Shown piece by piece: positions 7,858-25,601 of a stretch of 64,000 nt of DNA. The stretch spans positions 1,196 to 65,195 of the forward strand of contig DATLOL010000196.1 in the NCBI GenBank assembly GCA_035536275.1. The letters run 5' to 3'. Source of the DNA: Thermoanaerobaculia bacterium (lineage in GTDB: Bacteria; Acidobacteriota; Thermoanaerobaculia; Gp7-AA8). Positions within the stretch are counted from its first letter, which is position 1, and each line of letters begins with the position of its first letter. Both the position numbers and the translations under genes were made by a program. The notes beneath the pieces are model-generated. The model was not told where the DNA came from, did not search any database, and saw nothing but the letters and a program-made list of their open reading frames with translations.

Positions 7858-7864
7858 GGCCGCC

Positions 7865-8147: not shown

Positions 8148-8187
8148 CCCCATGCCAGTCGGCCTTCTTCGGAGGGAAGGAGTCGTC

Positions 8188-9987: not shown

Positions 9988-9996
9988 TGCTGCGGA

Positions 9997-10092
9997 GTCA
10001 TCCCGAGCGAAGTCGAGGGATCCCCTTGTCGTTTGCAGGGAGGGGGATCCTTCGACCGTCCTCCGCTGCGCTTCGGCGGCTCAGGATGACAC
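9997..10092. repeat. REP-like palindromic element (GTCATCCCGAGC..GTCGAGGGATCCC/GGGATCCTTCGAC..GGATGAC family)
   Basis: Nested inverted repeats; related copies at 14467, 29739, 29893 and 46800. Confidence 0.85.
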
Positions 10093-11382: not shown

Positions 11383-11678
11383 TTCGAGGGCTCGTTGGAG
11401 AAGGTCACGTTCGCGTCGGCGCGGATCTCACCGAACTTCTGCTCGAAGAGGGAGATGTTGTGGCCGAGGGCTTCGAGGAGCTGCTTGGCGTGCAGCGGGG
11501 TGAGGATGACGCGGCTGTAGACCTTGACGTCGGTGCGGCCGGGAACGACGCGGCCGAGGTCGATCACGAACTCGCTCTGGGAGTGAATGATGTTCGCGAA
11601 GTTGACGTACTCGCCCTGCGCGATCGGATCGTCCAGGATGATGCGGATCGTGCCGGGCTGCTGCTGCTGATTGTCCAT
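11379..11678 (-). CDS. DUF3467-like small protein
   Basis: GEYVNFANIIHSQSEFVIDLG...SRVILTPLHAKQLLEAL..NI..FE.KFGEI; ATG at 11678. Confidence 0.8.
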   Translation of the reverse strand: MDNQQQQPGTIRIILDDPIAQGEYVNFANIIHSQSEFVIDLGRVVPGRTDVKVYSRVILTPLHAKQLLEALGHNISLFEQKFGEIRADANVTFSNEPSN

Positions 11679-11700
11679 GGCGGTCTCAACCCGCCTGCGA

Positions 11701-12435
11701 TCAGGCCGAATTCCGGGCCCGGATGGCGCGCAGCGGCGCATCGGAGACGGCGGCGAGCACGAGACGCGTGGCGTTGTCATGCAGCGCGTCGACGCTCACG
11801 AGCACGCACTCGGCGACGTCGTCCCATCCGCGCAGATTGAGCTGCGACAGCGCGGCCGGCAGCGGCGAGAGACTCGGATTGAAGGCCGCGTTCTCCGCGT
11901 ACGCGCCGCTGACGATCGCACCACCCCGCGTGCGCAACGCGACGCCGGCGTACGACTTCGAGTACGGCGCGTAGCTAATGTTCGCCGCATTTAGCGCGGC
12001 CTGCGCGAGATCGTCATCCGCATCGATCGCGAGTCCGTGATCGTCGCGCTGCAGCAACCCGCCGTCGATTCCGAGATCGCGCGGTCCGAACGACGACGGC
12101 AGGAGCTCCGAAAGCCGGCGCTGCTCGCCGGGCATGATCACCAGCAGCTCGCGCGCGGTCGCGAGCTCGTTGAGAAACTGCCGGCAATAGCCGCACGGCG
12201 CGGCGCTCGTGGCGACGACGTCGATCGCGGTCTCGCCGCTCATCCACGCGTTCACCACAGCGGACTGCTCCGCGTGCACGGTGAAGCTCAGCGCCTCCCC
12301 GGCAAACTCGAGGTTCGTTCCCGGATACAGCTTCCCGCTCGCTCCGCGGGCAATCGCGCCGACCTTGAAGTTGGAAATGGGAGGCCGCGCCAGCGCCGCC
12401 GCCTGCGGGAGCATCGCGATGATGTCGTCGTGCAT
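11701..12435 (-). CDS. cdd: Cytidine deaminase, two-domain E. coli type
   Basis: HAEQSA and PCGYCRQF zinc motifs; second domain SYAPYS...ENAAFNPSL. Confidence 0.93.
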   Translation of the reverse strand: MHDDIIAMLPQAAALARPPISNFKVGAIARGASGKLYPGTNLEFAGEALSFTVHAEQSAVVNAWMSGETAIDVVATSAAPCGYCRQFLNELATARELLVIMPGEQRRLSELLPSSFGPRDLGIDGGLLQRDDHGLAIDADDDLAQAALNAANISYAPYSKSYAGVALRTRGGAIVSGAYAENAAFNPSLSPLPAALSQLNLRGWDDVAECVLVSVDALHDNATRLVLAAVSDAPLRAIRARNSA

Positions 12436-12438
12436 GGG

Positions 12439-12464
12439 ATTGCGGATGCTACATCAGCGGTACT
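12439..12464 (+). promoter_or_regulatory. Conserved 26-bp motif upstream of FG-GAP gene 1
   Basis: ATTGCGGATGCTACATCAGCGGTACT, 25/26 identical to 22703..22728. Confidence 0.6.
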
Positions 12465-12473
12465 CTTACCTTC

Positions 12474-14441
12474 ATGTTCCCCTCGCGCGCCGTGACGCTG
12501 CTCGCCCTCGTGCTGTTGGCCAGTGCCACCTCGGCCGCTACCCGCACGTGGACGGGTGCATCCGGAACGTTGTGGACCGACGCCGGCAACTGGCAGGGCG
12601 GGGTCGCGCCGGCGCCCGGCGACGCGCTGGTGTTTCCGCGTACGGCCCCCAATCTCACGAACACGAACGATTACCCGGTGGACACGATCTTCCACTCGCT
12701 CAGCCTGGGACCGGACAACCAGAGCACCGCGGCGACGATCAACATCAGCGGCAACCGCCTGCGCGTGACGAACGGCGTCATCCTCGGCCACTACTTCCAA
12801 TTCTTCGTGTCGCTCCCGCAGGTCGACCCGGTCGGAACGCAGGCGTGGGGCGGCGACGGGTCTCTCACCATTGCCGGCTCTCCGAATCTGACGATGACGA
12901 CGTCGATCCCGGCCGCCACCACCGTCAACATCAATCACGTCTTCGGGAGCATCACTCTCGGCGGCGCGGGCAGTCTCGCTACCGGAAACCGTACCCTCCT
13001 GACCCTGTACATGACCGGGTTCACCGGCACCGTCAGCACGACCAACCAGCAGTTGCCGTTGGGCGTGTTCGTGGACAACAGCAACGCGCCCGTGGCGACT
13101 TTGCTGTCGACCGGCGCTCCGTGCGAGATGCAGTGCCAGCACGGTCTCACGATCAGGAACTCCGTGCTGGGCACGGTGCAATCGACAGGCGGGAAGGTGC
13201 ATCTCAACGATGCCACACAGTCGTCGACGGTGTCCGTGCTCGACATGAACGGTGCCGCACAGCTGGTCGCGTTCGCGTCGACCGGGTCTCCCACTCCGCT
13301 CACCGTCCTCGACACGTTGTCCCTCGGCGGCGCGTCGCTGCATTTCACGGCCATGGAGCCGATCCCCATGGCCACGACCAAGGTGCTGATCGACAACCAG
13401 ACCGCAAATCCGGTCTCGGGAACGTTTGCAGGTCTACCCGAGGGATCGCGAATCATCGCGTCCGGCACGAACCAGCACTTCGCGATCTCGTACGAGGGCG
13501 GCGACGGCAACGACATCACCCTGACCGCCGTCAGTACGGCGCGCTCCGACTTCGACGGCGACGGCCGCTCGGACATCTTCTGGCGACACACGACCGGCGG
13601 CCAGAACTATCTCTGGACGATGAACGGCTTCACCCCGCAAACGATGGGCTTCGTCAACGACGTCCCGGATCTCGACTGGAAGATCGAGGCTCTGGCCGAC
13701 TTCAACGGCAACGGGAAGAGCGACGTGCTGTGGCGCCACGCACTCACCGGCGATCTCTACATGTACCTGATGGATGGACGCACGATCGTGGGCGCCGGAG
13801 CCGTGGGACAGGTGACGGACCTCGACTGGCGGATTGCCGGCACCGGCGACTTCGACAACGACGGCAAAGCGGACATTCTCTGGCGCCACGAGCTCACGGG
13901 CGAGAACTACCTGTACCTCATGAACGGCATCAACATCCGTTCGGGTGGGAGTCTCTTCACCGTCGAGGACACGGACTGGAAAGTGGTCGCGATCGCCGAT
14001 CTGAACCAGGACCGCATGGCCGAGATCATCTGGCGTCACAGCCAGACAGGAGAAGTGTTCTTCTGGCAGATGAACGGACACGAGAGGCTGGCGTTCGGCA
14101 CGATCACGACCATTCCGGATCAGGACTGGAAGCTCGCCGCGGTCGCGGATTTCGATAACGATGCGTACAACGACCTCCTCTGGCGCCACGCCGTGACCGG
14201 CGAGAACCAGCTCTATCGCCTGCAGAACGTGCGCATCACGCAGCAGTTCGCGCTCGATGCCGTGCACCCGGACTGGGACGTCGCGGGCGCCGGCGACTAC
14301 AACGGCGACGCCAAGGCAGACATCCTCTGGCGGAACCGCGTCACGGGCGAGAACTATCTCTACCTGATGGACGGCGGCACGGTCGCCGCCCCGGGAGCGC
14401 TGCCCCAAATCCCGGACACGGAGTGGACGATCGAGAGGTGA
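12474..14441 (+). CDS. Secreted FG-GAP/VCBS-repeat protein, copy 1
   Basis: Signal peptide; TWTG..W...GNW adhesin-like N-terminus; repeated DFDGDG.SDI(F/L)WRH units. Confidence 0.85.
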   Translation: MFPSRAVTLLALVLLASATSAATRTWTGASGTLWTDAGNWQGGVAPAPGDALVFPRTAPNLTNTNDYPVDTIFHSLSLGPDNQSTAATINISGNRLRVTNGVILGHYFQFFVSLPQVDPVGTQAWGGDGSLTIAGSPNLTMTTSIPAATTVNINHVFGSITLGGAGSLATGNRTLLTLYMTGFTGTVSTTNQQLPLGVFVDNSNAPVATLLSTGAPCEMQCQHGLTIRNSVLGTVQSTGGKVHLNDATQSSTVSVLDMNGAAQLVAFASTGSPTPLTVLDTLSLGGASLHFTAMEPIPMATTKVLIDNQTANPVSGTFAGLPEGSRIIASGTNQHFAISYEGGDGNDITLTAVSTARSDFDGDGRSDIFWRHTTGGQNYLWTMNGFTPQTMGFVNDVPDLDWKIEALADFNGNGKSDVLWRHALTGDLYMYLMDGRTIVGAGAVGQVTDLDWRIAGTGDFDNDGKADILWRHELTGENYLYLMNGINIRSGGSLFTVEDTDWKVVAIADLNQDRMAEIIWRHSQTGEVFFWQMNGHERLAFGTITTIPDQDWKLAAVADFDNDAYNDLLWRHAVTGENQLYRLQNVRITQQFALDAVHPDWDVAGAGDYNGDAKADILWRNRVTGENYLYLMDGGTVAAPGALPQIPDTEWTIER

Positions 14442-14446
14442 GGGGG

Positions 14447-14458
14447 GATTGGTCGGGC
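14447..14458. repeat. 12-bp direct repeat of the tRNA-Pro 3' end (possible att remnant)
   Basis: GATTGGTCGGGC, identical to 25457..25468. Confidence 0.55.
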
Positions 14459-14466
14459 CTCTTCAG

Positions 14467-14492
14467 TTCATCCCGAGCGAAGTCGAGGGATC
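14467..14492. repeat. Truncated half copy of the GTCATCCCGAGC REP-like family
   Basis: ttcatcccgagcgaagtcgagggatc matches the start of 9997..10092. Confidence 0.75.
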
Positions 14493-14554
14493 AATGGAGC
14501 CTCCGCGGCGCCCGTAAAGCCACTCCGGATCGGTCGAAGCCTGACCTGCATCGG

Positions 14555-14584
14555 CGATTGATATGGGGTGATATCGATCGAGAC
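14555..14584 (+). repeat. Isolated copy of the palindromic array site
   Basis: CGATTGATAT-GGGGTG-ATATCGATCG-AG, 28 bp identical to 24810..24837. Confidence 0.9.
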
Positions 14585-14722
14585 GACTCGCAACAGATCG
14601 GTAAGCCACCTGTAGCCGTTTGTTCGGACTGCCGTCACAACTAACTGCCGTCCTTCGGCATATATTCATATCGTCCAAAACGACGCATCGTGAATTTGAC
14701 GGAGTAGCCAGCGGACGGAGTC

Positions 14723-15715
14723 GTGGCGAGTCGTGTACCTGAAGAAGTGTCCGGCGGGTGTACGCGGCCGGTCTTCCGGATTCCGCCGGGGGCGGGAGCG
14801 GACCAGACCGGCAACATCAGGAATCATGCGAGTGCAGTGCTCGTGTTCGGGCCGAACGCCTCTGCGAACGAGGTCACGGCCACACTGGACGCGCTGCCGG
14901 ACACGGTCTGCAGCGCGATCGTGTTTGCAACGCGCGAATCGCTCGCGGACTTTCAACCACTCATCGACGACGATCGCCTCTTCTACCTCGCATGCGGCGA
15001 GCTTCCGCCGCGCGAGCTCGACGCGCTGATCGACAACGCCCTCGGCGAGCGCAAGCCCGCAGCAACACTCGATCGCTACCTCACCGCCGCGAGTCTGCGC
15101 CGGATCGCACTTGCGCAGAGCATCGCGGAGCTCACGAGCGCGCTGCGTGCAGCCGCGGCCACCACGGTCGGCGCGGAGCGCACCCGCTGCGTTCTCTTCG
15201 ACAGCCAGCGTGGAACGCTGTGGGTCCCGGACGAATCGGATGCCGAGAGCACCGCGGCGGGGCTGGTCAGCTTCATCCTCCGGACGGGCGTCGCTGTGTG
15301 TCTCCCGCATCTCGACGGCGACGCGCGCTTCGATCGGGATCTCGACAACCCCGAGGGCAGTAGTGCGGATCGATTCCTCGGCGTCCCCATCCTGGCCGGC
15401 GGGAAGGTCGTGGCGGTGCTCACCGCGATGCGGCCCTCCCACGCTTTGGCGTTCGAGCCAGTCGACATCGCGGCCATGGAAGCGCTCGCGGCACACGCCA
15501 GTCCGTACGCGGCGGCATGGCTCGAGGAATCGCCGGACTCGGGCGGGCCGTTCCGCCTTCGCGCATTGCGCGCGGCCGAGCAGACGCCCGGCTCCGCATC
15601 CGCGCCGCTGCAGCTCGAATCGGCGTGGATGCGCCGCGCGACCTGGCTTTTCTTCGCATCGCTCCTCACGCTGCTGGTTGCGTTCGTCGTGCTGAGGGGG
15701 TGGCTCGGTGAGTAA
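14723..15715 (+). CDS. GAF-domain protein with degenerate receiver-like N-terminus and a C-terminal TM helix; start uncertain
   Basis: GAF-like TAAGLVSFILRTG...D.RFDRDLD...FLGVPI....KVVAVL; FRLRAL..then hydrophobic helix; overlaps the ABC transporter start. Confidence 0.65.
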   Translation: MASRVPEEVSGGCTRPVFRIPPGAGADQTGNIRNHASAVLVFGPNASANEVTATLDALPDTVCSAIVFATRESLADFQPLIDDDRLFYLACGELPPRELDALIDNALGERKPAATLDRYLTAASLRRIALAQSIAELTSALRAAAATTVGAERTRCVLFDSQRGTLWVPDESDAESTAAGLVSFILRTGVAVCLPHLDGDARFDRDLDNPEGSSADRFLGVPILAGGKVVAVLTAMRPSHALAFEPVDIAAMEALAAHASPYAAAWLEESPDSGGPFRLRALRAAEQTPGSASAPLQLESAWMRRATWLFFASLLTLLVAFVVLRGWLGE

Positions 15716-17954
15716 GCGCATGCGCTTCGTGCCCCAGACCGCCGCCGCCGATTGCGGCGCGGCATGTCTGGCCATGACCCTCGGCGTCCACGGCCGGCAG
15801 GTGGCCCTGGAGGACGTGCGGCGCGTGACCGGTCTCTCCCGTCACGGCCTCGACGCGCAGCATCTGGTCGCGGCCGCGGAGCATTTCGGACTGCGCGCGC
15901 GCGGCGTGCAGTTGCGGACTCCGGAAGACCTCGCGTTTCTCGATCCCGGGAGCATTCTGCACTGGGAGTTCCGTCACTTCGTCGTCTTCGAGCGCGCCGA
16001 GAAAACGGGCGCGTGGGTGCTCGATCCCGCGAGAGGCCGTACCTTCGTGTCTCGCGCGGAGCTCGACCGCTCGCTCACCGGCGTGGCGCTGGTGTTCGAG
16101 CCGGGAAGCGATTTCGAGCGCGGCAGCGGCGACGTTCACCGCGCATCGCTTCTCGGCCGGTATGTGAAGCGCGTGCTGCAGCAGGACGCGGCACTCGTGC
16201 GCATCCTCCTGCTCTCGGTTCTGCTGCAGTTGTTCGCGCTCGCGGTGCCGGTGCTGACCGGGTTCCTGATCGATCGCGTGCTGCCCCACGGCGATCGCCA
16301 GCTCTACTGGATCCTGGGCGCGGGCGCCGCGACGCTCGTCGCATTCTCCACGCTGGCGAACTTCATCCGCTCGCACATCCTGCTCGCGGTGCGCACGCGC
16401 CTGGACGCGCAGCTCACGACCGATTTTCTCGAGCACCTCATCCACCTGCCGTTCTCGTTCTTCCAGCAGCGCTCCACCGGCGATCTGATGATGCGCGTCA
16501 ATAGCAACTCCACGATCCGGGAGATGCTCACCTCGGGCGTCCTTTCGGGAGCGCTTGACGGGCTGATGGTGGTGACGTACCTCGTCCTGCTCCTCGTCGC
16601 CGACGTTCGCCTCGGCTTGGTCATCGCCGGACTGGCCGTGCTGCGTGTGGCCGTCCTCATCGGCGCGTTGCGAGTGCGGCAGCGGCTCACCGCGGAGTCG
16701 CTGCAGGCGCAGGCGGCGGCGCAGGGTTATGAGCTGCAAATGCTGTCCGGCATCGAAGTGTTGAAAGCGTGCGGTGCGGAGCGGCGTGCCGTCGGCATCT
16801 GGTCGAACCTCTTCGTGCAGCAGCTCAACGTCTCGCTGGCGCGCGGCCGGCTCGATGCGCTGGTGAGCGCGCTGCTCGACGGTCTGTCGCTGGCGTCGCC
16901 GGTGACGGTGCTGCTGTACGGCGGGATGCGCGTGATGAACGGCGAGCTGACCCTCGGCATGATGCTCGCGCTGGCCGCGCTGGCCGCCGGATTTCTCGCG
17001 CCGCTCTCGCAGCTCGTCGGCAATGCCTCGCAGTTCCAGTTGATCGGCAGCTATCTCGAGCGGCTCGAGGACGTGCTGGCCGCGCCCGTCGAGCCGCAGG
17101 GACGCGACCTGCCGCGGCCGGAGTCGTTCGCCGGGCGCCTGTCGCTCCAGGGTGTCACGTTCCGCTACAGCGCCCTCGTTCCCCCGGCCCTCGCGGATGC
17201 GTCCTTCGATGTCGAGCCGGGATCGCTGATCGCGGTCGTCGGTCCGTCGGGATCGGGCAAGTCGACGCTCGCGGCGCTCGCCGCCGGTCTGCTCGTGGCG
17301 GATGAGGGACGCGTCGGGTATGACGACCGCGCGCTCACCGAGCTTCCGCGCGAGTGGCTGCGCTCGCAGATCGCATACGTTCCGCAGCACTCGTTTCTGT
17401 TCGGGACGACCATCCGCGCGAACATCGCGCTGCAGGATCCGGATCTCGCCTTCGAGCGGATCGTCGAGGCGGCGAAGCTCGCCGAGATCCATGACGAGAT
17501 CACCGCGATGCCGATGGGCTACGACACCCTCCTCGCGGACTCCGGATCGTCGCTCTCCGGCGGACAGCGCCAGCGCATCGCTCTGGCGCGCGCGCTGGTG
17601 ACCCGTCCGAAGATTCTGATTCTCGACGAAGCCACGAGCGCGCTCGATGCCGTCACGGAGCAGAAGATCCAGCGCAACCTCCTGGCTCTGCGCGCGACAC
17701 GCATCGTCGCCGCGCACCGTCTGAGCACGATCCGCGATGCGGATCTCATCGTGGTCCTCGACCACGGCCACACCGTCGAAACGGGCACGCACGCCGAGCT
17801 CGTGGCCCGCGACGGTCTCTATCGCCAATTGGTTTCCGCGCAACTCGAGCGCGCGGAAGAGTTGACCCCGTCAACCCGCGCGCAACCCACGCCCTTCTTC
17901 GGGGTCGAGGCGAGGCACGCACGCATTCAAGGCATTCGAGGAGACACGTCATGA
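15708..17954 (+). CDS. lanT: Peptidase C39-containing ABC transporter (PCAT, LanT-type)
   Basis: QTAAADCGAACL and HFVV C39 motifs; TM domain; GPSGSGKS, LSGGQRQR, ILDEATS. Confidence 0.95.
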   Translation: MSKRMRFVPQTAAADCGAACLAMTLGVHGRQVALEDVRRVTGLSRHGLDAQHLVAAAEHFGLRARGVQLRTPEDLAFLDPGSILHWEFRHFVVFERAEKTGAWVLDPARGRTFVSRAELDRSLTGVALVFEPGSDFERGSGDVHRASLLGRYVKRVLQQDAALVRILLLSVLLQLFALAVPVLTGFLIDRVLPHGDRQLYWILGAGAATLVAFSTLANFIRSHILLAVRTRLDAQLTTDFLEHLIHLPFSFFQQRSTGDLMMRVNSNSTIREMLTSGVLSGALDGLMVVTYLVLLLVADVRLGLVIAGLAVLRVAVLIGALRVRQRLTAESLQAQAAAQGYELQMLSGIEVLKACGAERRAVGIWSNLFVQQLNVSLARGRLDALVSALLDGLSLASPVTVLLYGGMRVMNGELTLGMMLALAALAAGFLAPLSQLVGNASQFQLIGSYLERLEDVLAAPVEPQGRDLPRPESFAGRLSLQGVTFRYSALVPPALADASFDVEPGSLIAVVGPSGSGKSTLAALAAGLLVADEGRVGYDDRALTELPREWLRSQIAYVPQHSFLFGTTIRANIALQDPDLAFERIVEAAKLAEIHDEITAMPMGYDTLLADSGSSLSGGQRQRIALARALVTRPKILILDEATSALDAVTEQKIQRNLLALRATRIVAAHRLSTIRDADLIVVLDHGHTVETGTHAELVARDGLYRQLVSAQLERAEELTPSTRAQPTPFFGVEARHARIQGIRGDTS

Positions 17955-18154
17955 AGAAACAGTTCACGAGCAAGCTCCACCTGAACAAGGAAACGTTGCG
18001 CAACCTGTCCGACCGCGATCTGAAGAGCGCGATCGGCGGCGCGACCTTCAACTGTGTGGAAACGGGCATGTCGTATTGCCAGACCTGTCCGACCGAGAGT
18101 TGTCTCTCGTACGGCAGCAGCTGCACCACCGGCAACGCCCGCTGCTGTTGCTGA
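17951..18154 (+). CDS. lanA: Lanthipeptide precursor: 30-aa double-Gly leader plus 37-aa core with 8 Cys and 11 Ser/Thr
   Basis: MKKQFTSKLHLNKETLRNLSDRDLKSAIGG|ATFNCVETGMSYCQTCPTESCLSYGSSCTTGNARCCC; GAGGAG RBS; lies between PCAT and LanC. Confidence 0.92.
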   Translation: MKKQFTSKLHLNKETLRNLSDRDLKSAIGGATFNCVETGMSYCQTCPTESCLSYGSSCTTGNARCCC

Positions 18155-18165
18155 CGCCAATATCC

Positions 18166-18196
18166 GAGGCGGCCGGAGGGCGCACCCGGCCGCCTC
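18166..18196 (+). terminator. 11-bp GC stem-loop after lanA (stabiliser or attenuator)
   Basis: GAGGCGGCCGG-9 nt-CCGGCCGCCTC with no strong U-tract. Confidence 0.55.
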
Positions 18197-18215
18197 ACTT
18201 CCGGAGAACACGGCC

Positions 18216-19490
18216 ATGTGGCAATCGATCGCCAGCGCGGACACGCGCCGCGAATGCTGGAGCACCATCGAAGAGATCGAGCACGGACTCGACCGGTATC
18301 TGGGGAGCGGCGATGCAACGCTCGATGACGTGACCGGCGGCTACGCCGGCGCCGCATTGTTCTACGCGTACCTCCACGCCGCGAGCGACAACGCCGGCGC
18401 GGCCGACCGCGCCCTGGAAGCGCTGGAACGGAGCACGAGCGCGCTCGCCGAGCGGCAGATGCTGCCGGCGCTCTATTCGGGCTTCCTCGGCGTCGGCTGG
18501 GTCGTCACGCATCTCACCCGCGATCTGTTCGAGGGCGATCCCGGTCTCGCCGGAGAGATCGACGACGCGCTGCGACAACTGCTGTCGAATGTCGAAGACA
18601 AATTGACGTTCGAATTGATCTACGGCCTGGCCGGATACGGGACGTATCTCGTCGAGCGCCTGCCCGATCCCGGAGCAGCCGCGTTGCTGGGCCGCGTCCT
18701 CGATCTGCTCGAAAGCTCACGCGATGCGTCGGGGGTGTGGCACACGGACCCCGGCTGGATGTCGCCGTGGCAACGCGAGAAGATGCCGCAGGGCTCCTAC
18801 AACCTCGGCGTCGCGCACGGGATCCCGGGGGTGATCGGATTTCTGGCCGCTGTCAGGCGCGAAGGTGTCCGCGATCCTCGTCTGGAGCGTTTCGCCGACG
18901 ATGCGGTGCGATGGACCCTGGCCCGGAAGTGGGAATCCCCGCACTCACTCTTTCCGGCTTTCATTCCGGTCGGCGGTGAGCCGTACCCGACGCGGACGGC
19001 CTGGTGTTACGGAGATCTCGGCGTGGCGGCGATGCTGCTCTCCGCGGCGCAGAGCTTTGGGCGCGACGACTGGAGGCGCGAGGCGCTGTCGATTGCCCGT
19101 ACCGCGGCGCGCCGTTCCGTCGAAGACACGCAAGTCAAGGATGCGGGCCTGTGCCACGGCTCGACCGGCATCGCCCACCTCCTCAATCGCATGGCCCAGG
19201 CCAGCGGCGACGACGAGCTTCGCAATGCAGCGGAGCGCTGGTATCGCGTCGCCCTCGACATGCGACGCCCGGGGGAGGGTCTGGCCGGACTCCTGAGCTG
19301 GGTCGACGTGGTCGAGAACGGGAAAATCGTCGGATTCGAGTGGAAGACCGAGCCCGGCTTTCTGTCCGGTGTCGCCGGGATCGGTCTCGGCCTGCTCGCC
19401 GCGGTTACGGACTTCGAGCCGGCGTGGGATCGCGTGCTCCTCGTCGCCATCCCGCCGGACGGCAGCGAGAGCAAGGGAGTCGCTGCATGA
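18216..19490 (+). CDS. lanC: Lanthionine synthetase LanC
   Basis: NLGVAHGIPG, WCYG and LCHG zinc-ligand motifs; ATG 18216 inside ORF 18054..19490. Confidence 0.93.
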   Translation: MWQSIASADTRRECWSTIEEIEHGLDRYLGSGDATLDDVTGGYAGAALFYAYLHAASDNAGAADRALEALERSTSALAERQMLPALYSGFLGVGWVVTHLTRDLFEGDPGLAGEIDDALRQLLSNVEDKLTFELIYGLAGYGTYLVERLPDPGAAALLGRVLDLLESSRDASGVWHTDPGWMSPWQREKMPQGSYNLGVAHGIPGVIGFLAAVRREGVRDPRLERFADDAVRWTLARKWESPHSLFPAFIPVGGEPYPTRTAWCYGDLGVAAMLLSAAQSFGRDDWRREALSIARTAARRSVEDTQVKDAGLCHGSTGIAHLLNRMAQASGDDELRNAAERWYRVALDMRRPGEGLAGLLSWVDVVENGKIVGFEWKTEPGFLSGVAGIGLGLLAAVTDFEPAWDRVLLVAIPPDGSESKGVAA

Positions 19491-22400
19491 GCAAAGACAT
19501 CGTTCCTTCCGGACTGGTCGTGTTGCGCACGCCGCTCCTCCCGATGGAGGAGATCGACGCCTGGCGTGCGGGACTGCAGGTGCCGCACGCGGCGGAGGAC
19601 GCCCTCGACGAAGCGCTCGCGCACGATCGCGCGCTCCTGCGCGAGCGTCTGCGGAAAATCGTGGCCCGGCCGGAGATTGCGGAGGCGCTCTTCCTCGGGT
19701 CCCCCGATCTCTTCGAAACCCTCGAGCAATGGAGGCGCGATCCCGAATCGAAGAAGGGAAAGAAGACGGAGCAGGCCCTGGTCCGCTATTTCCTGCGCAT
19801 GGCGTCGCGTCCGACGCCGTTCGGTCTCTTCTCCGGCTGTACGGCGGGACGGACCGGAGATCGCACGCGGCTCGTGCTCGGAGAGCGCAGTGCGTATCGC
19901 CGGTACAGCCGGCTGGACATGGATTACCTGTTCGCGTTGTGCGAGCACCTATCGCGCGATCCGGAGATTCGCGCGGAACTGCGCTTCCGGCCGAACTCGA
20001 GCCTGTACGAGACCGCGGGACGCCTGCGATTCGCGGAATCGCGCGTGCAGGGACGCATGCGGACGGTTCACCTCGTTGCCATCGACGCATTCGATGCGCT
20101 GCGGGACACGCTTCGCCGCGCGGCGGGTGGTGCGCGTCTGCACGATCTGGCAACGGCACTCGTCGAGAGCGATCCGGATGGCGAGATCACGCCTGAAGAC
20201 GCCGAGGCTTTTCTTCAGGAGCTCGTGGACAGCCAGCTTCTGGTGCCCGAGCTCGCACTGCCGGTGACGGGCGAAGAGAGCACGGCCGGCCTGGTCGAGC
20301 AACTCGATGTCCGGCAACTCGACTCGGTGCGCCTCGCGAGCGATGCCCGCACACGCCTGGCAGAGACCAACCGCGCGTTGCGCGACATCGATGCGGCGGG
20401 ACTCGGCTCGCCGCCGGACGTCTATCGCCGGCTGGCATCGGAGCTCGAGCCCCTGGGGGTACCGGTGTCGCTCTCGCGACTGTTTCAGGTGGATCTGACG
20501 AAGCCGCCGCAGGAGGTCGTGATCGGCGCGAGCGTCATCGATGAAGTGGTGCGCGGCCTCGAGGTCCTGCAGCGCTTCTCGCGCACGCAGGCGGAGCGGT
20601 CGCTGGAAGAATTCCGCGCTGCTTTCGTGGACCGGTATGGTGCGGATCGCGAAGTGCCGCTCGTCGACGTCCTCGATGAGGAGAGCGGCATCGGCTTCGA
20701 GCGCGCGAACAGAGCCGGAGCGGAGGCCTCGCCCCTTCTGTCGGCTCTGCCGCTGCAGCGACGCGGCGAATCAGCGGGCTACATCTGGAAGAACGAGGAT
20801 GCCGCGCTGATGGATCTGGTGATGCGCGCGGCGGCGGAAGGGCGCACCGAGATCGAGATCGGCGACGGCGACCTCCCGTCGCTGGAGAAATCCACGCGTC
20901 CGCCGATGCCCGAGGCGTTTCACGCCATGGCCGTGCTCTGCGCGGAATCGGCGGAGGCGGTCGAGCGCGGCGAGTTCCGGGTGCTTCTCTATGGCGGACA
21001 GGGACCGTCCGGTGCGCGCATGCTCGGTCGTTTCTGCCACAGCGATCCCGCGATCGACGAAGGAGTGAGGAAGCACCTCGCCGACGAGGAAAGGCTTCAT
21101 CCGGACGCCGTCTTCGCGGAGATCGTGCACCTGCCGGCCGGACGGATCGGCAACGTCCTTGCGCGGCCTGTTCTGCGCGGGCATGAGATCGCGTTCCTCG
21201 GCCGCTCCGGCGCGCCGCCGGACCGGCAGATCGCGGTCCAGGATCTGATGGTCACGGTTTCGGGCGATCGGATCCGCCTCCGATCGCGGAGCCTCGATCG
21301 CGAGATCATTCCCAGGATCACTTCGGCGCACAACACGTCGTCGGAAAGCCTCGGCGTATACCGGTTTCTGGCGGCGCTCCAGCCTCCCGTGGGCATGCAA
21401 TGGGATTGGGGAGCCATGGACCTCGCGCCGTACCTGCCGCGCGTCGTGTACGGCCGGCTGGTGCTTGCCCGCGCCCGCTGGTGTGTTACGGCTGCCGAGA
21501 TCCGGCCGATCGCGGAGGCCGCGGGAGCGCAGCGTTACCGCCTCGCGAAACGTCTCCGCGAGACGCGGCGGATGCCCCGCTACGTGAGTCTTGCGGAAGG
21601 CGACAACGAGCTGTTCATCGATTTCGAGAACGCGCTCACGCTCGACTCGGTGATCGAGCTGGTGCACAGCCGCCGGGACGTGACGTTCACCGAGTTCTTT
21701 CCTTCCCCGGACGAGCTGTGCGCGGAAGGACCGGAAGGACGGTTCTTTCACGAGTTGGTCATCCCGTTCACGCGCCGCCCCGCGGAAACACCCGTGCCGC
21801 TCGAATCGCGAACGGCTCCCTCGCTCCTGGTCCGGCGCACGTTCCCGCCGGGATCGGAGTGGTTGTACGCGAAGCTCTACACCGGGACTGCGACGGCGGA
21901 CCGTGTGTTGTGCGAGGACGTTGCGCCGCTGGCGCGGGAGGCCGTGGCCAGCGGCGCCGCGCGACGCTGGTTCTTCATCCGCTACGCCGAGGGCGGGTGG
22001 CACCTGCGCATCCGCTTCCAGGGCGATCCGCGGGTGCTGCGCGAGCGCGTGCAGCCCGAGCTCGAGTCGATGGCCCAGCGTCTCATCGACACGGGTGCCG
22101 CGTGGAAGCTGCAGTTCGACACCTACGAGCGCGAAGTCGAGCGCTACGGCGGCGCCGAGGCGATCGAGCTCGCGGAAGAGATCTTCCACTGCGACAGCGA
22201 AGCCGTCGTGGAGCTGCTCTCGTCATGCACCGGCGACGCCGGCGCCGATCTCCGCTGGCGATTCATGCTCGCTGGCATCGACCGCCTCTACGCCGACTTC
22301 GGATTGGATCTCGCCGCCCGGCTCCGTCTCGCCGAGCGTTCGCGCGACGCGTTCGGGCGGCAGTTCCACTTCGACTCCCTGCGCGACGACCTCGCCAACC

Positions 22401-22690
22401 GCTTCCGCGGACAACGCGCCTCCCTGCTGCAACTCCTCGACGCGCCGATCCCCGCACTCGATCAGCGATCCGCCGCGATCGCGCCGGTGGCCCGCGAGCT
22501 CCTCACTCGTCGGCTGCACATTCCGATCGATGCGATCCTCCCCAGCCTCGCCCACATGTTCGTCAACCGCCTGGCCCGCTCCGCGGGACCGGAGCATGAG
22601 CTGGTCCTGTACGACTATGCCGTGCAGTTGTACCGGTCGTGTATCGCGCGGGAAGGGAAGAGGGAGGGCGGGAGGAGGGCGGTGGGGTGA
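19487..22690 (+). CDS. lanB: Class I lanthipeptide dehydratase LanB (glutamylation plus elimination domains)
   Basis: VLRTPLLP, YFLRMASRPTPFGLFSG, WLYAKLY, WFFIRY, HLRIRF, YEREVERYGG, HMFVNRL; ATGA overlap with the lanC stop. Confidence 0.95.
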   Translation: MSKDIVPSGLVVLRTPLLPMEEIDAWRAGLQVPHAAEDALDEALAHDRALLRERLRKIVARPEIAEALFLGSPDLFETLEQWRRDPESKKGKKTEQALVRYFLRMASRPTPFGLFSGCTAGRTGDRTRLVLGERSAYRRYSRLDMDYLFALCEHLSRDPEIRAELRFRPNSSLYETAGRLRFAESRVQGRMRTVHLVAIDAFDALRDTLRRAAGGARLHDLATALVESDPDGEITPEDAEAFLQELVDSQLLVPELALPVTGEESTAGLVEQLDVRQLDSVRLASDARTRLAETNRALRDIDAAGLGSPPDVYRRLASELEPLGVPVSLSRLFQVDLTKPPQEVVIGASVIDEVVRGLEVLQRFSRTQAERSLEEFRAAFVDRYGADREVPLVDVLDEESGIGFERANRAGAEASPLLSALPLQRRGESAGYIWKNEDAALMDLVMRAAAEGRTEIEIGDGDLPSLEKSTRPPMPEAFHAMAVLCAESAEAVERGEFRVLLYGGQGPSGARMLGRFCHSDPAIDEGVRKHLADEERLHPDAVFAEIVHLPAGRIGNVLARPVLRGHEIAFLGRSGAPPDRQIAVQDLMVTVSGDRIRLRSRSLDREIIPRITSAHNTSSESLGVYRFLAALQPPVGMQWDWGAMDLAPYLPRVVYGRLVLARARWCVTAAEIRPIAEAAGAQRYRLAKRLRETRRMPRYVSLAEGDNELFIDFENALTLDSVIELVHSRRDVTFTEFFPSPDELCAEGPEGRFFHELVIPFTRRPAETPVPLESRTAPSLLVRRTFPPGSEWLYAKLYTGTATADRVLCEDVAPLAREAVASGAARRWFFIRYAEGGWHLRIRFQGDPRVLRERVQPELESMAQRLIDTGAAWKLQFDTYEREVERYGGAEAIELAEEIFHCDSEAVVELLSSCTGDAGADLRWRFMLAGIDRLYADFGLDLAARLRLAERSRDAFGRQFHFDSLRDDLANRFRGQRASLLQLLDAPIPALDQRSAAIAPVARELLTRRLHIPIDAILPSLAHMFVNRLARSAGPEHELVLYDYAVQLYRSCIAREGKREGGRRAVG

Positions 22691-22702
22691 GCTGTTCGGG
22701 GA

Positions 22703-22728
22703 ATTGCGGATGCTCCATCAGCGGTACT
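22703..22728 (+). promoter_or_regulatory. Conserved 26-bp motif upstream of FG-GAP gene 2
   Basis: ATTGCGGATGCTCCATCAGCGGTACT, 25/26 identical to 12439..12464. Confidence 0.6.
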
Positions 22729-22735
22729 AGGAGCT

Positions 22736-24712
22736 ATGATCCGCCACCGCATCATCCCTCTGGTCGTAGTGTCTCTGCTCGCGTTGTCCGCCTTCGGCGC
22801 CACGCGCACATGGGACGGCACCGCCGGCACGTTGTGGAGTGACCCGGGCAATTGGGAGGGTGGCGTTGCTCCGTCGGCAGGTGATGCGCTGGTGTTTCCG
22901 CGCACGGCGGCGAATCTCACGAACACGAACGATTATCCGGTCGATACGGTCTTCCACTCCCTCACCCTCGGGCAGGACAACCAGAGCACGGCCGCCACGA
23001 TCAACATCAGCGGCAACCGCCTGCGCCTCACGAACGGCATTCTGTTCGGGTACTACACCTTCTTTCACATTTCTCTGCCGCAGATCGATCCGGTCGGGTC
23101 GCAGACCTGGGGGGCGGACGGCTATCTGACCGTTGCCGGCAATCCGACCTTGACGGTGGCGACGAACATCCCGGCCGGGACGACCGTGACTCTGTCGGAC
23201 GGCATTGCAGACGTCACCGTGGACGGTGCGGGCACGCTCGCGCACTCGATCAGGGGCCAGGCGACGGTGCACTTCGCGCCGGACTTCACCGGCACGGTCA
23301 CCACGAGCACCTTCTTTTCCGGCGTGATCATCAACAGCGAAAACGCAATCGGAGCAACGGTGCGTGCGAATGGCGGCGCGTGCGCGGCCAGCTGCAACTC
23401 CGGCATCCTGCTCGCGAATTCGGTCGTTGGGACGCTCGGATCGACGGGAGGATTCGTTCAGTTTTCGGATCCCACGCAGCTCTCCACCGCGGCAAATCTC
23501 GAGCTGACTGCCGGCGCGCTCTTCTTCGCCCGGATGACGGCAGCATCGCCGCCGCCGCTCACGGTCCTGGACAGCGTCTCCCTCGGCGGCGCGGCCCTGC
23601 ATTTCGTACCGGTCGGCCTGATTCCGTCCGGCCACACAAAAGTTCTCATCGACAACCAGAGCGCGAATCCTGTCTCGGGCATGTTCGCGGGCCTGCCCGA
23701 GGGAGCACGGGTCTCGCCGGGCGGATCGAATCTGCAGTTCGTCGTCTCGTACGTGGGCGGCGACGGCAACGACGTCACCTTGACTCCGATCAGCACCACG
23801 TCGAACGACTTCGACGGCGACGGGCTCTCGGACATCTTCTGGCGCCACTCCACGTCCGGACAGAACTATCTCTGGACCATGAACGGATTCGAGCCCCAGA
23901 CCATGGGCTTCGTCAACGACGTCACGGATCTCGATTGGAAGATCGAGGGCCTGGCCGATTTCAACGGCGACGGCAAGTGCGACGTGCTGTGGCGGCACGC
24001 GCTCACGGGCGAGTTGTACACGTACCTGATGGACGGCCGCACGATCGTGCAGGCCGGCTCGCCGGCCCTGGTCACGGACCTGAACTGGCAGATCGTGGGA
24101 CAGAGAGACTTCGACGCCGACGGGAAGGCGGACATCCTCTGGCGGCACGCGCTCACGGGGGACAACTATCTGTATCTGATGAACGGAATCAACATCCGTT
24201 CGGCGGGAAACATCCTCTCCGTCGAGGACACCGACTGGAAAGTCGAGGCATTGGGCGACTTCAATGGCGACAACCGCGCGGACATCGTGTGGCGCCACGC
24301 CGTGACCGGCGAGGTCTACTTCTGGTTCATGAGTGGTTTCGACCGGATCGCCTATGACTCGAAGTTCACCATGCCCGACGAGGACTGGAAAATCGTTGCG
24401 ATTTCGGACTTCACCGGCGAAGGGTACTCCGACATCCTCTGGCACAACGACGCGACCGGCGAGAGCTCGCTGTACAGGATGCACGGCCCGTATTTCGCGC
24501 AAGCCCGCCAGCTCGACACCGTGGCCGTCGAGTGGAAGATCGCCGGCACCGGCGACTACAACGGCGACGGAAAATCGGACATCCTCTGGCGCCACGCCAC
24601 GACGGGCGAGAACTATCTCTACATCATGGGCGACTTCTCCGCGACGACGATGTTCGCGGCGCAGGGAGCCATCCCGGAAGTGCCGGACACGGGGTGGGCG
24701 ATCGAGAGGTGA
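22736..24712 (+). CDS. Secreted FG-GAP/VCBS-repeat protein, copy 2 (paralog of 12474..14441)
   Basis: Same architecture; near-identical N-terminal ~80 aa and FG-GAP repeats; both end PDT.W.IER. Confidence 0.85.
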   Translation: MIRHRIIPLVVVSLLALSAFGATRTWDGTAGTLWSDPGNWEGGVAPSAGDALVFPRTAANLTNTNDYPVDTVFHSLTLGQDNQSTAATINISGNRLRLTNGILFGYYTFFHISLPQIDPVGSQTWGADGYLTVAGNPTLTVATNIPAGTTVTLSDGIADVTVDGAGTLAHSIRGQATVHFAPDFTGTVTTSTFFSGVIINSENAIGATVRANGGACAASCNSGILLANSVVGTLGSTGGFVQFSDPTQLSTAANLELTAGALFFARMTAASPPPLTVLDSVSLGGAALHFVPVGLIPSGHTKVLIDNQSANPVSGMFAGLPEGARVSPGGSNLQFVVSYVGGDGNDVTLTPISTTSNDFDGDGLSDIFWRHSTSGQNYLWTMNGFEPQTMGFVNDVTDLDWKIEGLADFNGDGKCDVLWRHALTGELYTYLMDGRTIVQAGSPALVTDLNWQIVGQRDFDADGKADILWRHALTGDNYLYLMNGINIRSAGNILSVEDTDWKVEALGDFNGDNRADIVWRHAVTGEVYFWFMSGFDRIAYDSKFTMPDEDWKIVAISDFTGEGYSDILWHNDATGESSLYRMHGPYFAQARQLDTVAVEWKIAGTGDYNGDGKSDILWRHATTGENYLYIMGDFSATTMFAAQGAIPEVPDTGWAIER

Positions 24713-24745
24713 AGGGTGGGGACGACCAACCGGATCTAGGGACGC

Positions 24746-25428
24746 GAGGGATGTGCGGAGACGTCAATCGTGGCCTCCGCGAGCACGTGAACGCCTGCGG
24801 TGCGATATCCGATTGATATGGGGTGATATCGATCGAGGGCTCGGCAGGCATGCGTAAGAGCGCACCGCACGTGCGATCGAGCTGAATGGCCGTCGATCGT
24901 GACCTCGCCGACCGCGCGCTTCATATGGGGTGATATCCATCGAGGCGTCGGCGACCGTCCGCCCGAGCGCGGCGACCGCTCAATTGATATGCGGTGATAT
25001 CAATCGAAGTCTCGACGGACGTGCAATTGATATGGGGTCATATCGATCGAGACCTCGGCGACCGCGTGAAAATGTCCGGTGCACGGGCCGATTGATATGG
25101 GGTGATATCGATCGAGGTCTCGGCGAGCGTGTGAACAGGTGCGGCGCGACACCGAATTGATATGGGGTCATATCAATCGAGGGCTCGACGACCGCCCGCA
25201 CGAGCTCTGCGACCCTGCAATTGATATGGGGTGATATCAATCGAGGCCTCGGCGGACCTGCAATTGATATGGGGTCATATCAATCAGGGCCTCGGCGACT
25301 ACGTGAAAATGTCCGGTCGACGGCGCGATCGATATGGAGTGATATCAATCGAAAGCCTCGGCCAGTGTGTGCACCAGCGCAGTGAACGTGCGATCGATGT
25401 AGGGCGATATCGATTCGAAGCCTCAGCG
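24746..25428 (+). repeat. 12-unit direct-repeat array of a ~35-bp palindromic motif with 43 or 64-65 bp periodicity
   Basis: Consensus CRATTGATAT-GGGGT(G/C)-ATATCRATCG-AGGCCTCGGCG; unit starts (TTGAT position) 24748, 24813, 24877, 24920, 24984, 25027, 25092, 25157, 25221, 25264, 25329, 25394. Confidence 0.93.
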
Positions 25429-25459
25429 GATATGTGTTGGGGAGGGCTGGGGTTGTGAT

Positions 25460-25536
25460 TGGTCGGGCAGGGGGGATTTGAACCCCCGACCACCTGAACC
25501 CCATTCAGGTACGCTACCAGGCTGCGCTACTGCCCG
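25460..25536 (-). tRNA. tRNA-Pro(GGG)
   Basis: Reverse complement CGGGCAGTAGCGCAGCCTGGTAGCGTACCTGAATGGGGTTCAGGTGGTCGGGGGTTCAAATCCCCCCTGCCCGACCA. Confidence 0.96.
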
Positions 25537-25601
25537 ACTCGGCGTGGATCGTACCACGCGCTCCGTCGTCAACGGTTTACCGGCGGTTGTATTCCGAACC
25601 T

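What the first reader, a model, noticed from the sequence alone, without database searches (positions are those of the whole stretch)
14447..25468. Integrase-less ~11 kb island at tRNA-Pro, bounded by a 12-bp tRNA-end repeat and by one versus twelve copies of the palindromic site
Seen: GATTGGTCGGGC, which contains the tRNA-Pro acceptor-stem end and CCA, occurs at 25457..25468 and again at 14447..14458, 6 bp after the FG-GAP1 stop. Just inside the left copy are a half REP and one perfect copy of the array site in the same orientation. Inside the right copy is the 12-unit array. The cargo is the lanthipeptide cluster plus FG-GAP2, with no recombinase or transposase. Established: tRNA 3' ends are common integration sites and leave a short duplication. 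Inference: a non-autonomous element mobilised in trans. Recombination between the left site and a right site with the same GGGGTG spacer (24813, 24920, 25092, 25221) would excise the cluster as a circle.
Basis: partly seen in the sequence, partly recalled or inferred. Interest (0 to 1): 0.75.

Follow-up and report, generated by a model that had tools for sequence, protein, structure and literature searches.

The report
Variable gene zone beside tRNA-Pro
The proposed 11-kb mobile island is an old lanthipeptide (peptide antibiotic) gene cluster in a fast-changing stretch of chromosome next to a tRNA gene, bracketed by a duplicated surface-protein gene, and the 12-base "scar" used to define it is no better than chance.

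Summary
The 11-kb island model does not hold.

- **12-mer:** anchored repeats of 12 nt or more turn up in about 4% of control comparisons across this genome's 39 tRNAs. True att repeats are 28-31 nt here, and 47 nt at the same tRNA-Pro in a relative.
- **Boundaries:** the closest relative with a long contig has an empty site, with the cytidine deaminase gene (cdd) 48 bp from tRNA-Pro. G000's flanks rejoin at 12460|25425, so FG-GAP1 lies inside the variable segment and the right junction is 35 bp outside the tRNA.
- **Cluster:** GAF-LanT-LanA-LanC-LanB sits in the same interval in three other species, without FG-GAP genes or palindromic sites.
- **FG-GAP genes:** they are a lineage-specific 2.2-kb segmental duplication. 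The FG-GAP2 copy carries a copy of the ancestral cdd flank.
- **Palindromic sites:** they belong to a dispersed family of phased arrays (at least 5 loci here, patchy in the genus).

At least 7 relatives have an integrase beside this tRNA-Pro, so it is a real integration hot spot.

The parts
11701..12435 (-). cdd (cytidine deaminase), the last gene of the conserved block TonB receptor - TrmFO - DUF3467 - cdd
   Evidence: Pfam PF08211/PF00383. The block is conserved in relatives while the neighbour on the other side of cdd changes.
12436..12466 (.). Leader 'a': the ancestral flank next to cdd (gggattgcggatgctacatcagcggtact), now also the upstream region of FG-GAP1
   Evidence: Homologous sequence lies next to cdd in G006, G010 and G013. 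The left breakpoint against the G006 empty site is at 12460.
12474..14441 (+). FG-GAP1, a secreted FG-GAP/VCBS-repeat protein (655 aa)
   Evidence: Pfam PF13517/PF01839. Its closest protein among 5.8 billion is FG-GAP2 at 60%; the next hits are 52% or less and cover under half of the query. Absent from this position in G013 and G012.
14447..14458 (+). Left copy of the 12-mer GATTGGTCGGGC, inside the 3' tail of the FG-GAP1 module
   Evidence: Chance-level length. No counterpart in the FG-GAP2 tail.
14490..14578 (+). Mini-array: half site ATCAAT (14490-14495) plus one full palindromic site (14557-14578)
   Evidence: Aligns with the first unit after FG-GAP2, including a 28-nt identical stretch.
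14616..14722 (+). Conserved upstream region of the lanthipeptide cassette (GAF promoter region)
   Evidence: Homology with G013 L022:922-1016 starts here, by eye.
14723..15715 (+). GAF-domain protein, first gene of the cassette
   Evidence: Pfam PF01590. Orthologues in G013, G002 and G043.
15708..17954 (+). LanT-type ABC exporter with an N-terminal C39 peptidase
   Evidence: PF03412 + PF00664 + PF00005.
17951..18154 (+). LanA precursor (67 aa) with a double-Gly leader and a core rich in Cys, Ser and Thr
   Evidence: Translation MKKQ...SAIGG|ATFNCVETGMSYCQTCPTESCLSYGSSCTTGNARCCC.
18054..19490 (+). LanC cyclase (the true start may be further downstream)
   Evidence: PF05147, E 2.5e-42.
19487..22690 (+). 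LanB dehydratase (the ORF is open from 19004; the start is uncertain)
   Evidence: PF04738 + PF14028. Orthologues at 58-74% identity in G013, G002, G017, G012 and G043.
22701..22728 (.). Leader copy a': a duplicate of the cdd-proximal flank, placed directly after the LanB stop and before FG-GAP2
   Evidence: 26 of 28 identical to 12437-12464, and found nowhere else in the genome.
22736..24712 (+). FG-GAP2, paralogue of FG-GAP1 (60% aa, about 77% nt)
24812..25414 (+).
   Evidence: The same family forms arrays on contigs C148, C103, C133, C150, C47 and C77 and in some other species.
25425..25459 (.). Ancestral flank next to the tRNA (…ggggagggctggggttgtgat)
   Evidence: Aligns with the G006 empty site. 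The last 11 nt match G043.
25457..25468 (+). Right copy of the 12-mer: 3 nt of flank plus the last 9 nt of tRNA-Pro
25460..25536 (-). tRNA-Pro(GGG), an integration hot spot in this genus
   Evidence: ARAGORN and Rfam. Integrases or att repeats lie next to the orthologous tRNA in relatives.
25602..27464 (-). GHMP-kinase-like gene (620 aa), first gene of the conserved block on the far side
   Evidence: Pfam. Syntenic with tRNA-Pro in 24 genomes of the genus.

Best explanation
The interval between cdd and tRNA-Pro(GGG) is a chromosomal plasticity zone in a Thermoanaerobaculia (Acidobacteriota) genus. The tRNA 3' end is used by integrase-bearing islands in many relatives, and the content next to cdd turns over between species.

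In this genome the zone holds no active island. It holds three layers:
1. An old resident class I lanthipeptide cassette (GAF, C39-ABC exporter, LanA, LanC, LanB). It occupies the same interval and orientation in at least three other species, so it was most likely inherited, or exchanged by flank homology, and did not arrive by site-specific integration.
2. A lineage-specific 2.2-kb FG-GAP module: a 31-bp leader, the ORF, and a tail with palindromic sites. It first lay between cdd and the cassette. It was then copied, together with about 30 bp of cdd flank, to the other side of the cassette, giving two diverged direct repeats that bracket it. How the copy was made is inferred. The copy offset of about 10,260 bp fits a tandem duplication of the unit 12438-22699 followed by loss of the second cassette.
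3. A dispersed family of phased palindromic sites. It is represented by 1.5 units after FG-GAP1 and by a tandemly expanded array after FG-GAP2.

The 12-mer is a coincidence, not an att scar. Nothing in the sequence points to mobilisation in trans today.
For: - **Hot spot.** Tyrosine integrase genes lie about 1.2 kb 3' of the orthologous tRNA-Pro in G012, G005, G023, G017, G020, G002 and G007. G024 has a perfect 47-bp duplication of the tRNA end, 4,234 bp apart, plus a decayed third copy.
- **Variable interval.** Between cdd and tRNA-Pro there are 48 bp (G006), 2.9 kb (G015), 13 kb (G000), 16 kb (G013), 24 kb (G003), 45 kb (G012) and 56 kb (G005).
- **Variable neighbour of cdd.** Metagenome relatives have a sulfatase, a CHAT/caspase set or an NRPS cluster next to cdd.
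- **Empty site.** G000 flanks joined at 12460|25425 align end to end with G006.
- **Resident cassette.**
  - G013: cdd, 148 bp, GAF-LanT-LanC-LanB.
  - G012: the same order, with five integrase genes between the cassette and the tRNA.
  - G043: the LanB stop is 18 bp from tRNA-Pro.
  - LanB identity (74, 66 and 58%) falls with species distance, roughly as GHMP identity does (81 and 78% in G013 and G012).
- **Composition.** GC 0.64-0.69 and GC3 0.78-0.88 against a genome mean of 0.67 and 0.88. Genuine tRNA islets in this genome have GC 0.60-0.63 and GC3 0.70-0.81.
- **FG-GAP modules.** The alignment runs from the leader, through the ORF, to the first site. The leader is the ancestral cdd flank and occurs only twice in the genome. 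FG-GAP1's nearest protein anywhere is FG-GAP2. No orthologue (E below 1e-40) was found in 10 relatives.
- **Sites.** Arrays at 5 or more other loci with unrelated neighbours and no integrase on those contigs. The family is present in only 6-8 of 35 genomes of the genus.
- **12-mer.** It is at chance level.
Against: - The 12-mer is unique in the genome, in direct orientation, intergenic, and beside a proven hot spot. A short-core att relic therefore cannot be excluded.
- The G002 orthologue of the cassette lies at another locus, between GH57 and GH77 genes. The cassette has therefore moved at least once by an unknown route.
- G006 and G010, the closest relatives, lack the cassette. Gain in G000 rather than loss in them is possible.
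- No same-species genomes exist in the collections and no reads could be laid. Recent mobility was never tested directly.
- The order of the FG-GAP events is inferred, not shown.
Confidence: 0.6

Rival explanations
1. Positions 14459-25456 are a decayed island without an integrase (a cis-mobilizable element, CIME). It integrated into the tRNA-Pro 3' end with a 12-bp core, and an integrase supplied in trans can excise it.
For: - The 12-mer has exactly two copies in the genome, in direct orientation, and one overlaps the tRNA 3' end.
- tRNA-Pro is a used hot spot.
- Integrase-less elements with att repeats exist at this tRNA in G024, and at three other tRNAs in this genome.
Against: - 12 nt is the length that chance gives: 4 of 114 controls, plus a 13-mer at tRNA-Ser in the same window.
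- Real att repeats are 28-47 nt, and similarity does not extend into the tRNA.
- The left copy lies inside FG-GAP1-module DNA, which is absent where G013 and G012 have the cassette.
- The empty site in G006 has different boundaries.
- There is no compositional signal.
- The assembly holds no contig with an alternative junction (weak evidence).
Confidence: 0.08
2. The 8-6-8 palindromic sites are core sites of a tyrosine recombinase, Xer-like as in the pdif modules of Acinetobacter plasmids. Recombination between the lone site and an array site with the same GGGGTG spacer excises the cassette plus FG-GAP2 as a circle.
For: - The site has the layout of a recombinase core: inverted arms around an asymmetric 6-bp centre.
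- Identical 28-nt units lie at 14555 and 24810, in direct orientation.
- An Xer-type gene lies 21 kb away in the window.
Against: - Arrays of 9-13 direct sites persist at several loci and in several species. An active recombinase would collapse them.
- Other arrays do not flank cargo, and no integrase lies on their contigs.
- The Xer-type gene is syntenic in relatives that have no sites.
- Spacing in multiples of about 21.5 bp suggests cooperative binding, not strand exchange.
- Relatives keep the cassette without any site.
Confidence: 0.05
3. The whole 12,964-bp segment 12461-25424 (FG-GAP1, cassette, FG-GAP2, array) entered a G006-like empty site as one piece by a mechanism independent of the tRNA. 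Alternatively, it was lost from G006 as one piece by recombination at a short repeat.
For: - The flanks rejoin cleanly against G006.
- Both junctions carry (TC)AGCGG.
- G006 and G010 are the nearest relatives and both lack the segment.
Against: - A 5-7-nt repeat is expected by chance in flanks of this size.
- The cassette alone occupies the same interval in G013, G012 and G043. The segment is therefore layered, not a single unit.
- The a' leader shows an internal duplication after FG-GAP1 had come to lie next to cdd.
Confidence: 0.15

Closest known systems
tRNA-linked genomic islands and their decayed, integrase-less derivatives (CIMEs, cis-mobilizable elements), as defined in PMC5704250
   Same: It lies directly 3' of a tRNA gene that integrase-bearing elements use in relatives. 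It has no integrase of its own. Relatives show tandem accretion of elements at the same tRNA (G012, G024).
   Different: A CIME keeps attL and attR. Here the only candidate repeat is 12 nt and at chance level. Its position does not match the presence/absence boundaries seen in relatives, and the right junction against the empty site is 35 bp outside the tRNA.
Regions of genomic plasticity (variable intervals between conserved blocks, often next to tRNA genes); from general knowledge
   Same: Conserved blocks lie on both sides (TonB-TrmFO-DUF3467-cdd, and tRNA-Pro-GHMP-M23). Between them the content differs in nearly every species, from 48 bp to 56 kb.
   Different: Nothing essential. This is the category it fits.
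Class I lanthipeptide clusters (LanB/LanC type)
   Same: A split LanB dehydratase (PF04738 + PF14028), a LanC cyclase and a Cys/Ser/Thr-rich precursor.
   Different: It uses a double-Gly leader and a C39-peptidase ABC exporter, which by my own knowledge is more usual for class II clusters. It also has a GAF-domain gene as a conserved first gene.
pdif (XerC/D-site) modules of Acinetobacter plasmids; from my own knowledge, not tested here
   Same: Short sites with inverted arms around a 6-bp centre flank a gene module that has no recombinase of its own.
   Different: pdif sites are 11-6-11, resemble the chromosomal dif site and alternate in orientation around modules. Here all sites point the same way, form long phased arrays, and mostly flank nothing.
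sopC centromere of the F plasmid (12 tandem 43-bp units, each with an inverted repeat bound by SopB); from my own knowledge
   Same: An array of about a dozen units, a 43-bp spacing class, and an inverted repeat in each unit.
   Different: The arrays are chromosomal and occur at several loci. Spacing is mixed (43, 64-65 and 107 bp). No ParB/SopB-type partner gene was identified next to any array.
REP/BIME clusters with RAYT transposases
   Same: Short palindromes clustered in intergenic DNA, in many copies per genome, patchy between species.
   Different: Units are not in alternating orientation. Y1 transposase genes (PF01797) do not track the arrays across 35 genomes.

Membership tests
tRNA-integrated genomic island / CIME | Direct repeats (attL/attR) made of the tRNA 3' segment, clearly longer than chance | tested here: not met
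   12 nt only. Controls reach 12 nt or more in 4 of 114 comparisons. True repeats are 28-31 nt in this genome and 47 nt at this tRNA in G024.
tRNA-integrated genomic island / CIME | Presence/absence in relatives coincides with the repeats | tested here: not met
   The G006 empty site maps to 12460|25425. G013 homology resumes at about 14616. G013, G012 and G043 carry the cassette without any repeat or FG-GAP gene.
tRNA-integrated genomic island / CIME | Integrase gene, or a remnant, at the tRNA-proximal end | tested here: not met
   The interval is fully occupied by 7 non-recombinase genes plus the array. The only PF00589 hit on contig C196 is an Xer-type gene at window 46936-47445, syntenic in relatives.
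tRNA-integrated genomic island / CIME | Location at a tRNA used as an integration site | tested here: met
   Integrases lie next to the orthologous tRNA-Pro in at least 7 relatives, and G024 has a 47-bp att duplication there.
tRNA-integrated genomic island / CIME | Composition or codon usage unlike the host genome | tested here: not met
   All genes lie within about 2.5 sd of the genome. GAF and LanC are mildly low in GC3 (0.81, 0.78). Genuine islets in this genome have GC 0.60-0.63.
tRNA-integrated genomic island / CIME | Excision or circular junctions in the population | not testable with these tools
The assembly has no alternative-junction contig, which is only weak evidence.
Class I lanthipeptide gene cluster | LanB dehydratase with N- and C-terminal domains, plus a LanC cyclase | tested here: met
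   PF04738 E 2e-166, PF14028 E 5.6e-63, PF05147 E 2.5e-42.
Class I lanthipeptide gene cluster | Precursor peptide with a leader and a Cys/Ser/Thr-rich core, plus an export/processing gene | tested here: met
   67-aa LanA with a GG motif and an 8-Cys core. C39-ABC exporter.
Xer/dif-type module | Sites resemble the host dif site and are bound by XerC/D; sites alternate in orientation around modules | tested here: not met
   All sites share one orientation and form arrays. Likeness to the host dif site was not tested, because dif was not located in this draft genome.
REP/BIME-RAYT system | Palindromic units co-occur with a RAYT (Y1 transposase) gene | tested here: not met
   PF01797 hits do not correlate with array-bearing genomes. 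G005 has arrays but no hit. G002, G015 and G023 have 6-8 hits and no arrays.
Segmental duplication (paralogous modules) | Collinear homology that extends beyond the ORFs into both flanks | tested here: met
   12436-14610 aligns with 22700-24840. Leader 26/28-29/31 identical, ORFs about 77% nt identical, shared first site 28/28 identical.

The most novel reading that the evidence does not exclude
The 8-6-8 palindromic sites are recognition sites for a host protein supplied in trans: a recombinase of the Xer kind, or a protein that binds cooperatively. In that reading they drive the copying, shuffling or excision of adjacent modules (FG-GAP modules, the lanthipeptide cassette). The phased arrays next to tRNA-Pro and tRNA-Arg would then be landing pads or reservoirs of a new module-mobilising system in Acidobacteriota that needs no integrase of its own.
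Probability: 0.06. Interest if true: 0.7.

Novelty: new member of a known kind. Interest (0 to 1): 0.3.

Why it matters
The island claim does not survive comparison with relatives, so this locus should not be counted as a new kind of mobile element.

What remains useful:
1. **A documented tRNA-Pro(GGG) hot spot in uncultured Thermoanaerobaculia**, with states ranging from empty, through integrase-less elements with 47-bp att repeats, to 56 kb of stacked islands.
2. **A conserved five-gene class I lanthipeptide cassette** that has kept its place in that zone across species and has moved at least once to another locus.
3. **A yardstick for later windows.** In this genome a 12-13-nt repeat of a tRNA end is noise, and 28 nt or more is signal.

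The phased palindrome arrays are still unexplained. They are the more interesting object here, but they are a genome-wide repeat family, not the ends of this island.

Tried and rejected
- **Same-species alleles.**
  - The exact cdd product is not on record.
  - The best cdd homologues are 90% identical or less.
  - FG-GAP1 has no homologue above 60% other than FG-GAP2.
  - No within-species empty site could therefore be sought.
- **GTDB scan with FG-GAP2**. It returned only a distant Kiritimatiellota fragment, which gave no context.
- **RAYT link to the arrays.** Rejected.
- **Rfam over 14300-25700.** Only the tRNA was found.
- **tRNA association of arrays.** It holds for two loci in G000 (tRNA-Pro, and tRNA-Arg on C148). 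It fails for five array loci in G024 and G005. It is not a general property of the family.
- **Pfam on the G010 ORF next to tRNA-Pro.** I read it as AlpA-like, but it gave no Pfam hit, so I make no claim about it.
- **The (TC)AGCGG repeat at the G006-type junctions and an inverted CGACCAA in the FG-GAP2 tail.** Both were judged to be at chance level.
- **Practical limit.** Synteny was therefore worked out from tool coordinates.

Full report
**Observation**

The window is contig C196:1196-65195 of a 4.05-Mb draft genome with 197 contigs and 66% GC. Homologues of its cdd gene are labelled Thermoanaerobaculia, Acidobacteriota.

tRNA-Pro(GGG) lies at 25460-25536 on the minus strand, with its CCA encoded. 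GATTGGTCGGGC occurs at 25457-25468, which is 3 nt of flank plus the last 9 nt of the tRNA. It occurs again at 14447-14458, five bases after the FG-GAP1 stop. These are the only two copies in the assembly.

Pfam gives the gene order:
- cdd (minus strand)
- FG-GAP1
- GAF
- C39-ABC exporter
- LanA
- LanC
- LanB
- FG-GAP2
- the array
- tRNA-Pro, then a GHMP-kinase-like gene and an M23 peptidase (all minus strand)

There is no room for a recombinase and none was found.

**Is the 12-mer more than chance?**

For each of the 39 tRNAs in this genome I took the longest exact repeat that covers the last 6 nt of the tRNA and recurs within 30 kb.
- Control comparisons (upstream side, or inverted orientation) reach 12 nt or more in 4 of 114.
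- The downstream-direct class gives 12 nt for tRNA-Arg(tcg) and 13 nt for tRNA-Ser(tga), which is in this same window.
- Three tRNAs (Glu-ctc on C77, Ala-ggc on C129, Val-cac on C159) have 28-31-nt duplications 3.7-7 kb downstream. These enclose low-GC DNA (0.60-0.63).
- At the orthologous tRNA-Pro of relative G024 the duplication is a perfect 47-mer, 4,234 bp apart, with a decayed third copy.

The 12-mer therefore falls in the noise class. Past its edge, the sequence shows no similarity to the tRNA.

**Relatives**

All 24 same-genus genomes in the first search keep tRNA-Pro next to the GHMP gene, or have the GHMP gene at a contig end. The distance from tRNA-Pro to cdd varies:

| Genome | cdd to tRNA-Pro |
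|---|---|
| G006 | 48 bp |
| G015 | 2.9 kb |
| G000 | 13 kb |
| G013 | 16 kb |
| G003 | 24 kb |
| G012 | 45 kb |
| G005 | 56 kb |

In metagenome relatives, the gene next to cdd is a sulfatase, a CHAT/caspase set or an NRPS cluster.

Seven relatives have a tyrosine integrase gene (open frames of 570-653 aa) about 1.2 kb 3' of this tRNA. G024 has there a 4.2-kb element with 47-bp att repeats, an AAA ATPase gene and no integrase.

So the tRNA is a real hot spot, and integrase-less att-flanked elements (CIMEs in the sense of PMC5704250) do occur at it.

**Boundaries**

G006 is one of the two closest relatives (GHMP 86%, cdd 85% identical). I joined G000's flanks at every combination of breakpoints and aligned each join to G006. 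The best join is 12460|25425, and it aligns end to end.

The G000-specific segment is therefore 12461-25424. It includes FG-GAP1, and it ends 35 bp outside the tRNA. Both junctions carry (TC)AGCGG, which is too short to interpret.

**The lanthipeptide cassette is a long-term resident**
- **G013:** cdd, 148 bp, then GAF-LanT-LanC-LanB, then unrelated genes, then tRNA-Pro.
- **G012:** the same arrangement next to cdd, with five integrase genes between the cassette and the tRNA.
- **G043:** the LanB stop is 18 bp from the tRNA-Pro 3' end.

None of these three has FG-GAP genes, palindromic sites or a tRNA-end repeat at the cassette edge.

Homology between G000 and G013 upstream of GAF begins at about 14616. 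The 12-mer and the lone site therefore lie in DNA that belongs to the FG-GAP1 insertion, not at the edge of the cluster.

LanB identity (74, 66 and 58%) falls with species distance, roughly as the flanking genes do. Composition is unremarkable.

In G002 the orthologous cassette lies between GH57 and GH77 genes. It has therefore moved at least once, by an unknown route.

**The FG-GAP bracket**

Positions 12436-14610 and 22700-24840 align throughout. The ORFs are about 77% identical at the nucleotide level and 60% at the protein level. The first palindromic unit is 28/28 identical, and the upstream leader is 29/31 identical.

That leader is the ancestral sequence next to the cdd start codon, recognisable in G006, G010 and G013. 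It occurs only twice in the genome. The FG-GAP2 module is therefore a copy of cdd flank plus FG-GAP1 plus tail.

FG-GAP1's nearest relative among 5.8 billion proteins is FG-GAP2, and no orthologue was found in ten relatives.

The copy offset of about 10,260 bp equals the distance from the leader to the LanB stop. That fits a tandem duplication of that unit followed by loss of the second cassette. This step is inference.

**The palindromic sites**

The same family forms arrays on C148 (directly 3' of tRNA-Arg-ccg), at the ends of C103 and C133, at the starts of C150 and C47, and as a pair on C77. The neighbouring genes are unrelated, and no integrase lies on those contigs.

Within the genus it is patchy: G000 36 sites, G045 28, G024 27, G006 14, G005 9, a few in others, and none in G013 or G012. 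Arrays in G024 and G005 are not near tRNAs.

Spacings are multiples of about 21.5 bp. I read this as phased binding sites for a cooperative DNA-binding protein, or as a self-expanding tandem repeat. This is inference with low confidence.

Y1 transposases do not track the arrays, and Rfam has nothing for them. They are not specific ends of this segment.

**Verdict**

The general idea holds: integrase-less variable DNA at a tRNA-Pro hot spot, with an empty site in a relative. The specific 11-kb unit, its att sites and the proposed excision by recombination between sites are not supported.

The best reading (about 0.6) is a plasticity zone that holds an old lanthipeptide cassette, a lineage-specific duplicated FG-GAP module and a member of a dispersed repeat family.

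The assembly contains no alternative junction.

Noticed in passing
G000 contigs outside the window: C77:22476-26211, C129:3981-7812, C159:7551-14653: Three small islets (3.7-7.1 kb, GC 0.60-0.63) are flanked by perfect 28-31-nt duplications of the 3' ends of tRNA-Glu(ctc), tRNA-Ala(ggc) and tRNA-Val(cac). No PF00589 integrase lies on these contigs. The C77 islet is almost filled by one 1160-aa NTPase-like ORF.
   Followed up: partly
L028 (G024:C41) 1976-7683: At the orthologous tRNA-Pro there is a 4.2-kb element flanked by a perfect 47-bp repeat of the tRNA end. It carries an AAA ATPase gene and no integrase. It is followed by a third, decayed repeat (17/20) 1.4 kb further on, and then by a CHAT-TPR gene.
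   Followed up: partly
G000 C148:11481-12470 (outside the window): A second array of 13 or more palindromic sites starts about 120 bp 3' of tRNA-Arg(ccg), in the same orientation relative to the tRNA as the array in the window. It is preceded by a GTTGTCGG-type short repeat that also precedes the C103 array.
   Followed up: partly
L052 (G002:C32) 1267-13674: The orthologous lanthipeptide cassette (LanB 72% identical) is inserted between a GH57/DUF3536 gene and a GH77 4-alpha-glucanotransferase gene. Only 35 bp separate the LanB stop from the GH77 start. This is a second genomic context for the same cassette.
   Followed up: partly
window 12436-12466 and 22701-22728: The leader upstream of both FG-GAP genes is 26/28 to 29/31 identical, while the ORFs are only about 77% identical. 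This suggests selection on a shared regulatory element or recent gene conversion.
   Followed up: no
window 2299-2388 and about 26.6 kb: The 3' end of tRNA-Ser(tga) has a 13-nt direct repeat (CCGCCACCGGCGC) 24 kb downstream. It looks like a tRNA-end att repeat but is a chance match, and I used it as a yardstick.
   Followed up: yes
G000 C101 and C40 (outside the window): ARAGORN calls three closely spaced 'tRNA' genes (Pro-cgg, Pro-tgg, Ala-cgc) inside a tandem repeat of units like GGTCGTGGATTCGCATTCCAC. These are probably false tRNA calls, or an unusual tRNA-like repeat.
   Followed up: no
L031 (G010:C203) 79-300, minus strand: In the closest relative, a 73-aa ORF lies 170 bp 3' of tRNA-Pro. 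It looked like an AlpA/excisionase-type HTH by eye but has no Pfam hit, and the contig ends just beyond it.
   Followed up: partly
L057 and L058 (metagenome relatives of cdd): Next to cdd, other species carry a sigma70-CHAT-peptidase C11/C14 set, or an NRPS cluster with a PPTase and a penicillin amidase. The zone therefore collects defence-like and biosynthetic gene sets.
   Followed up: no
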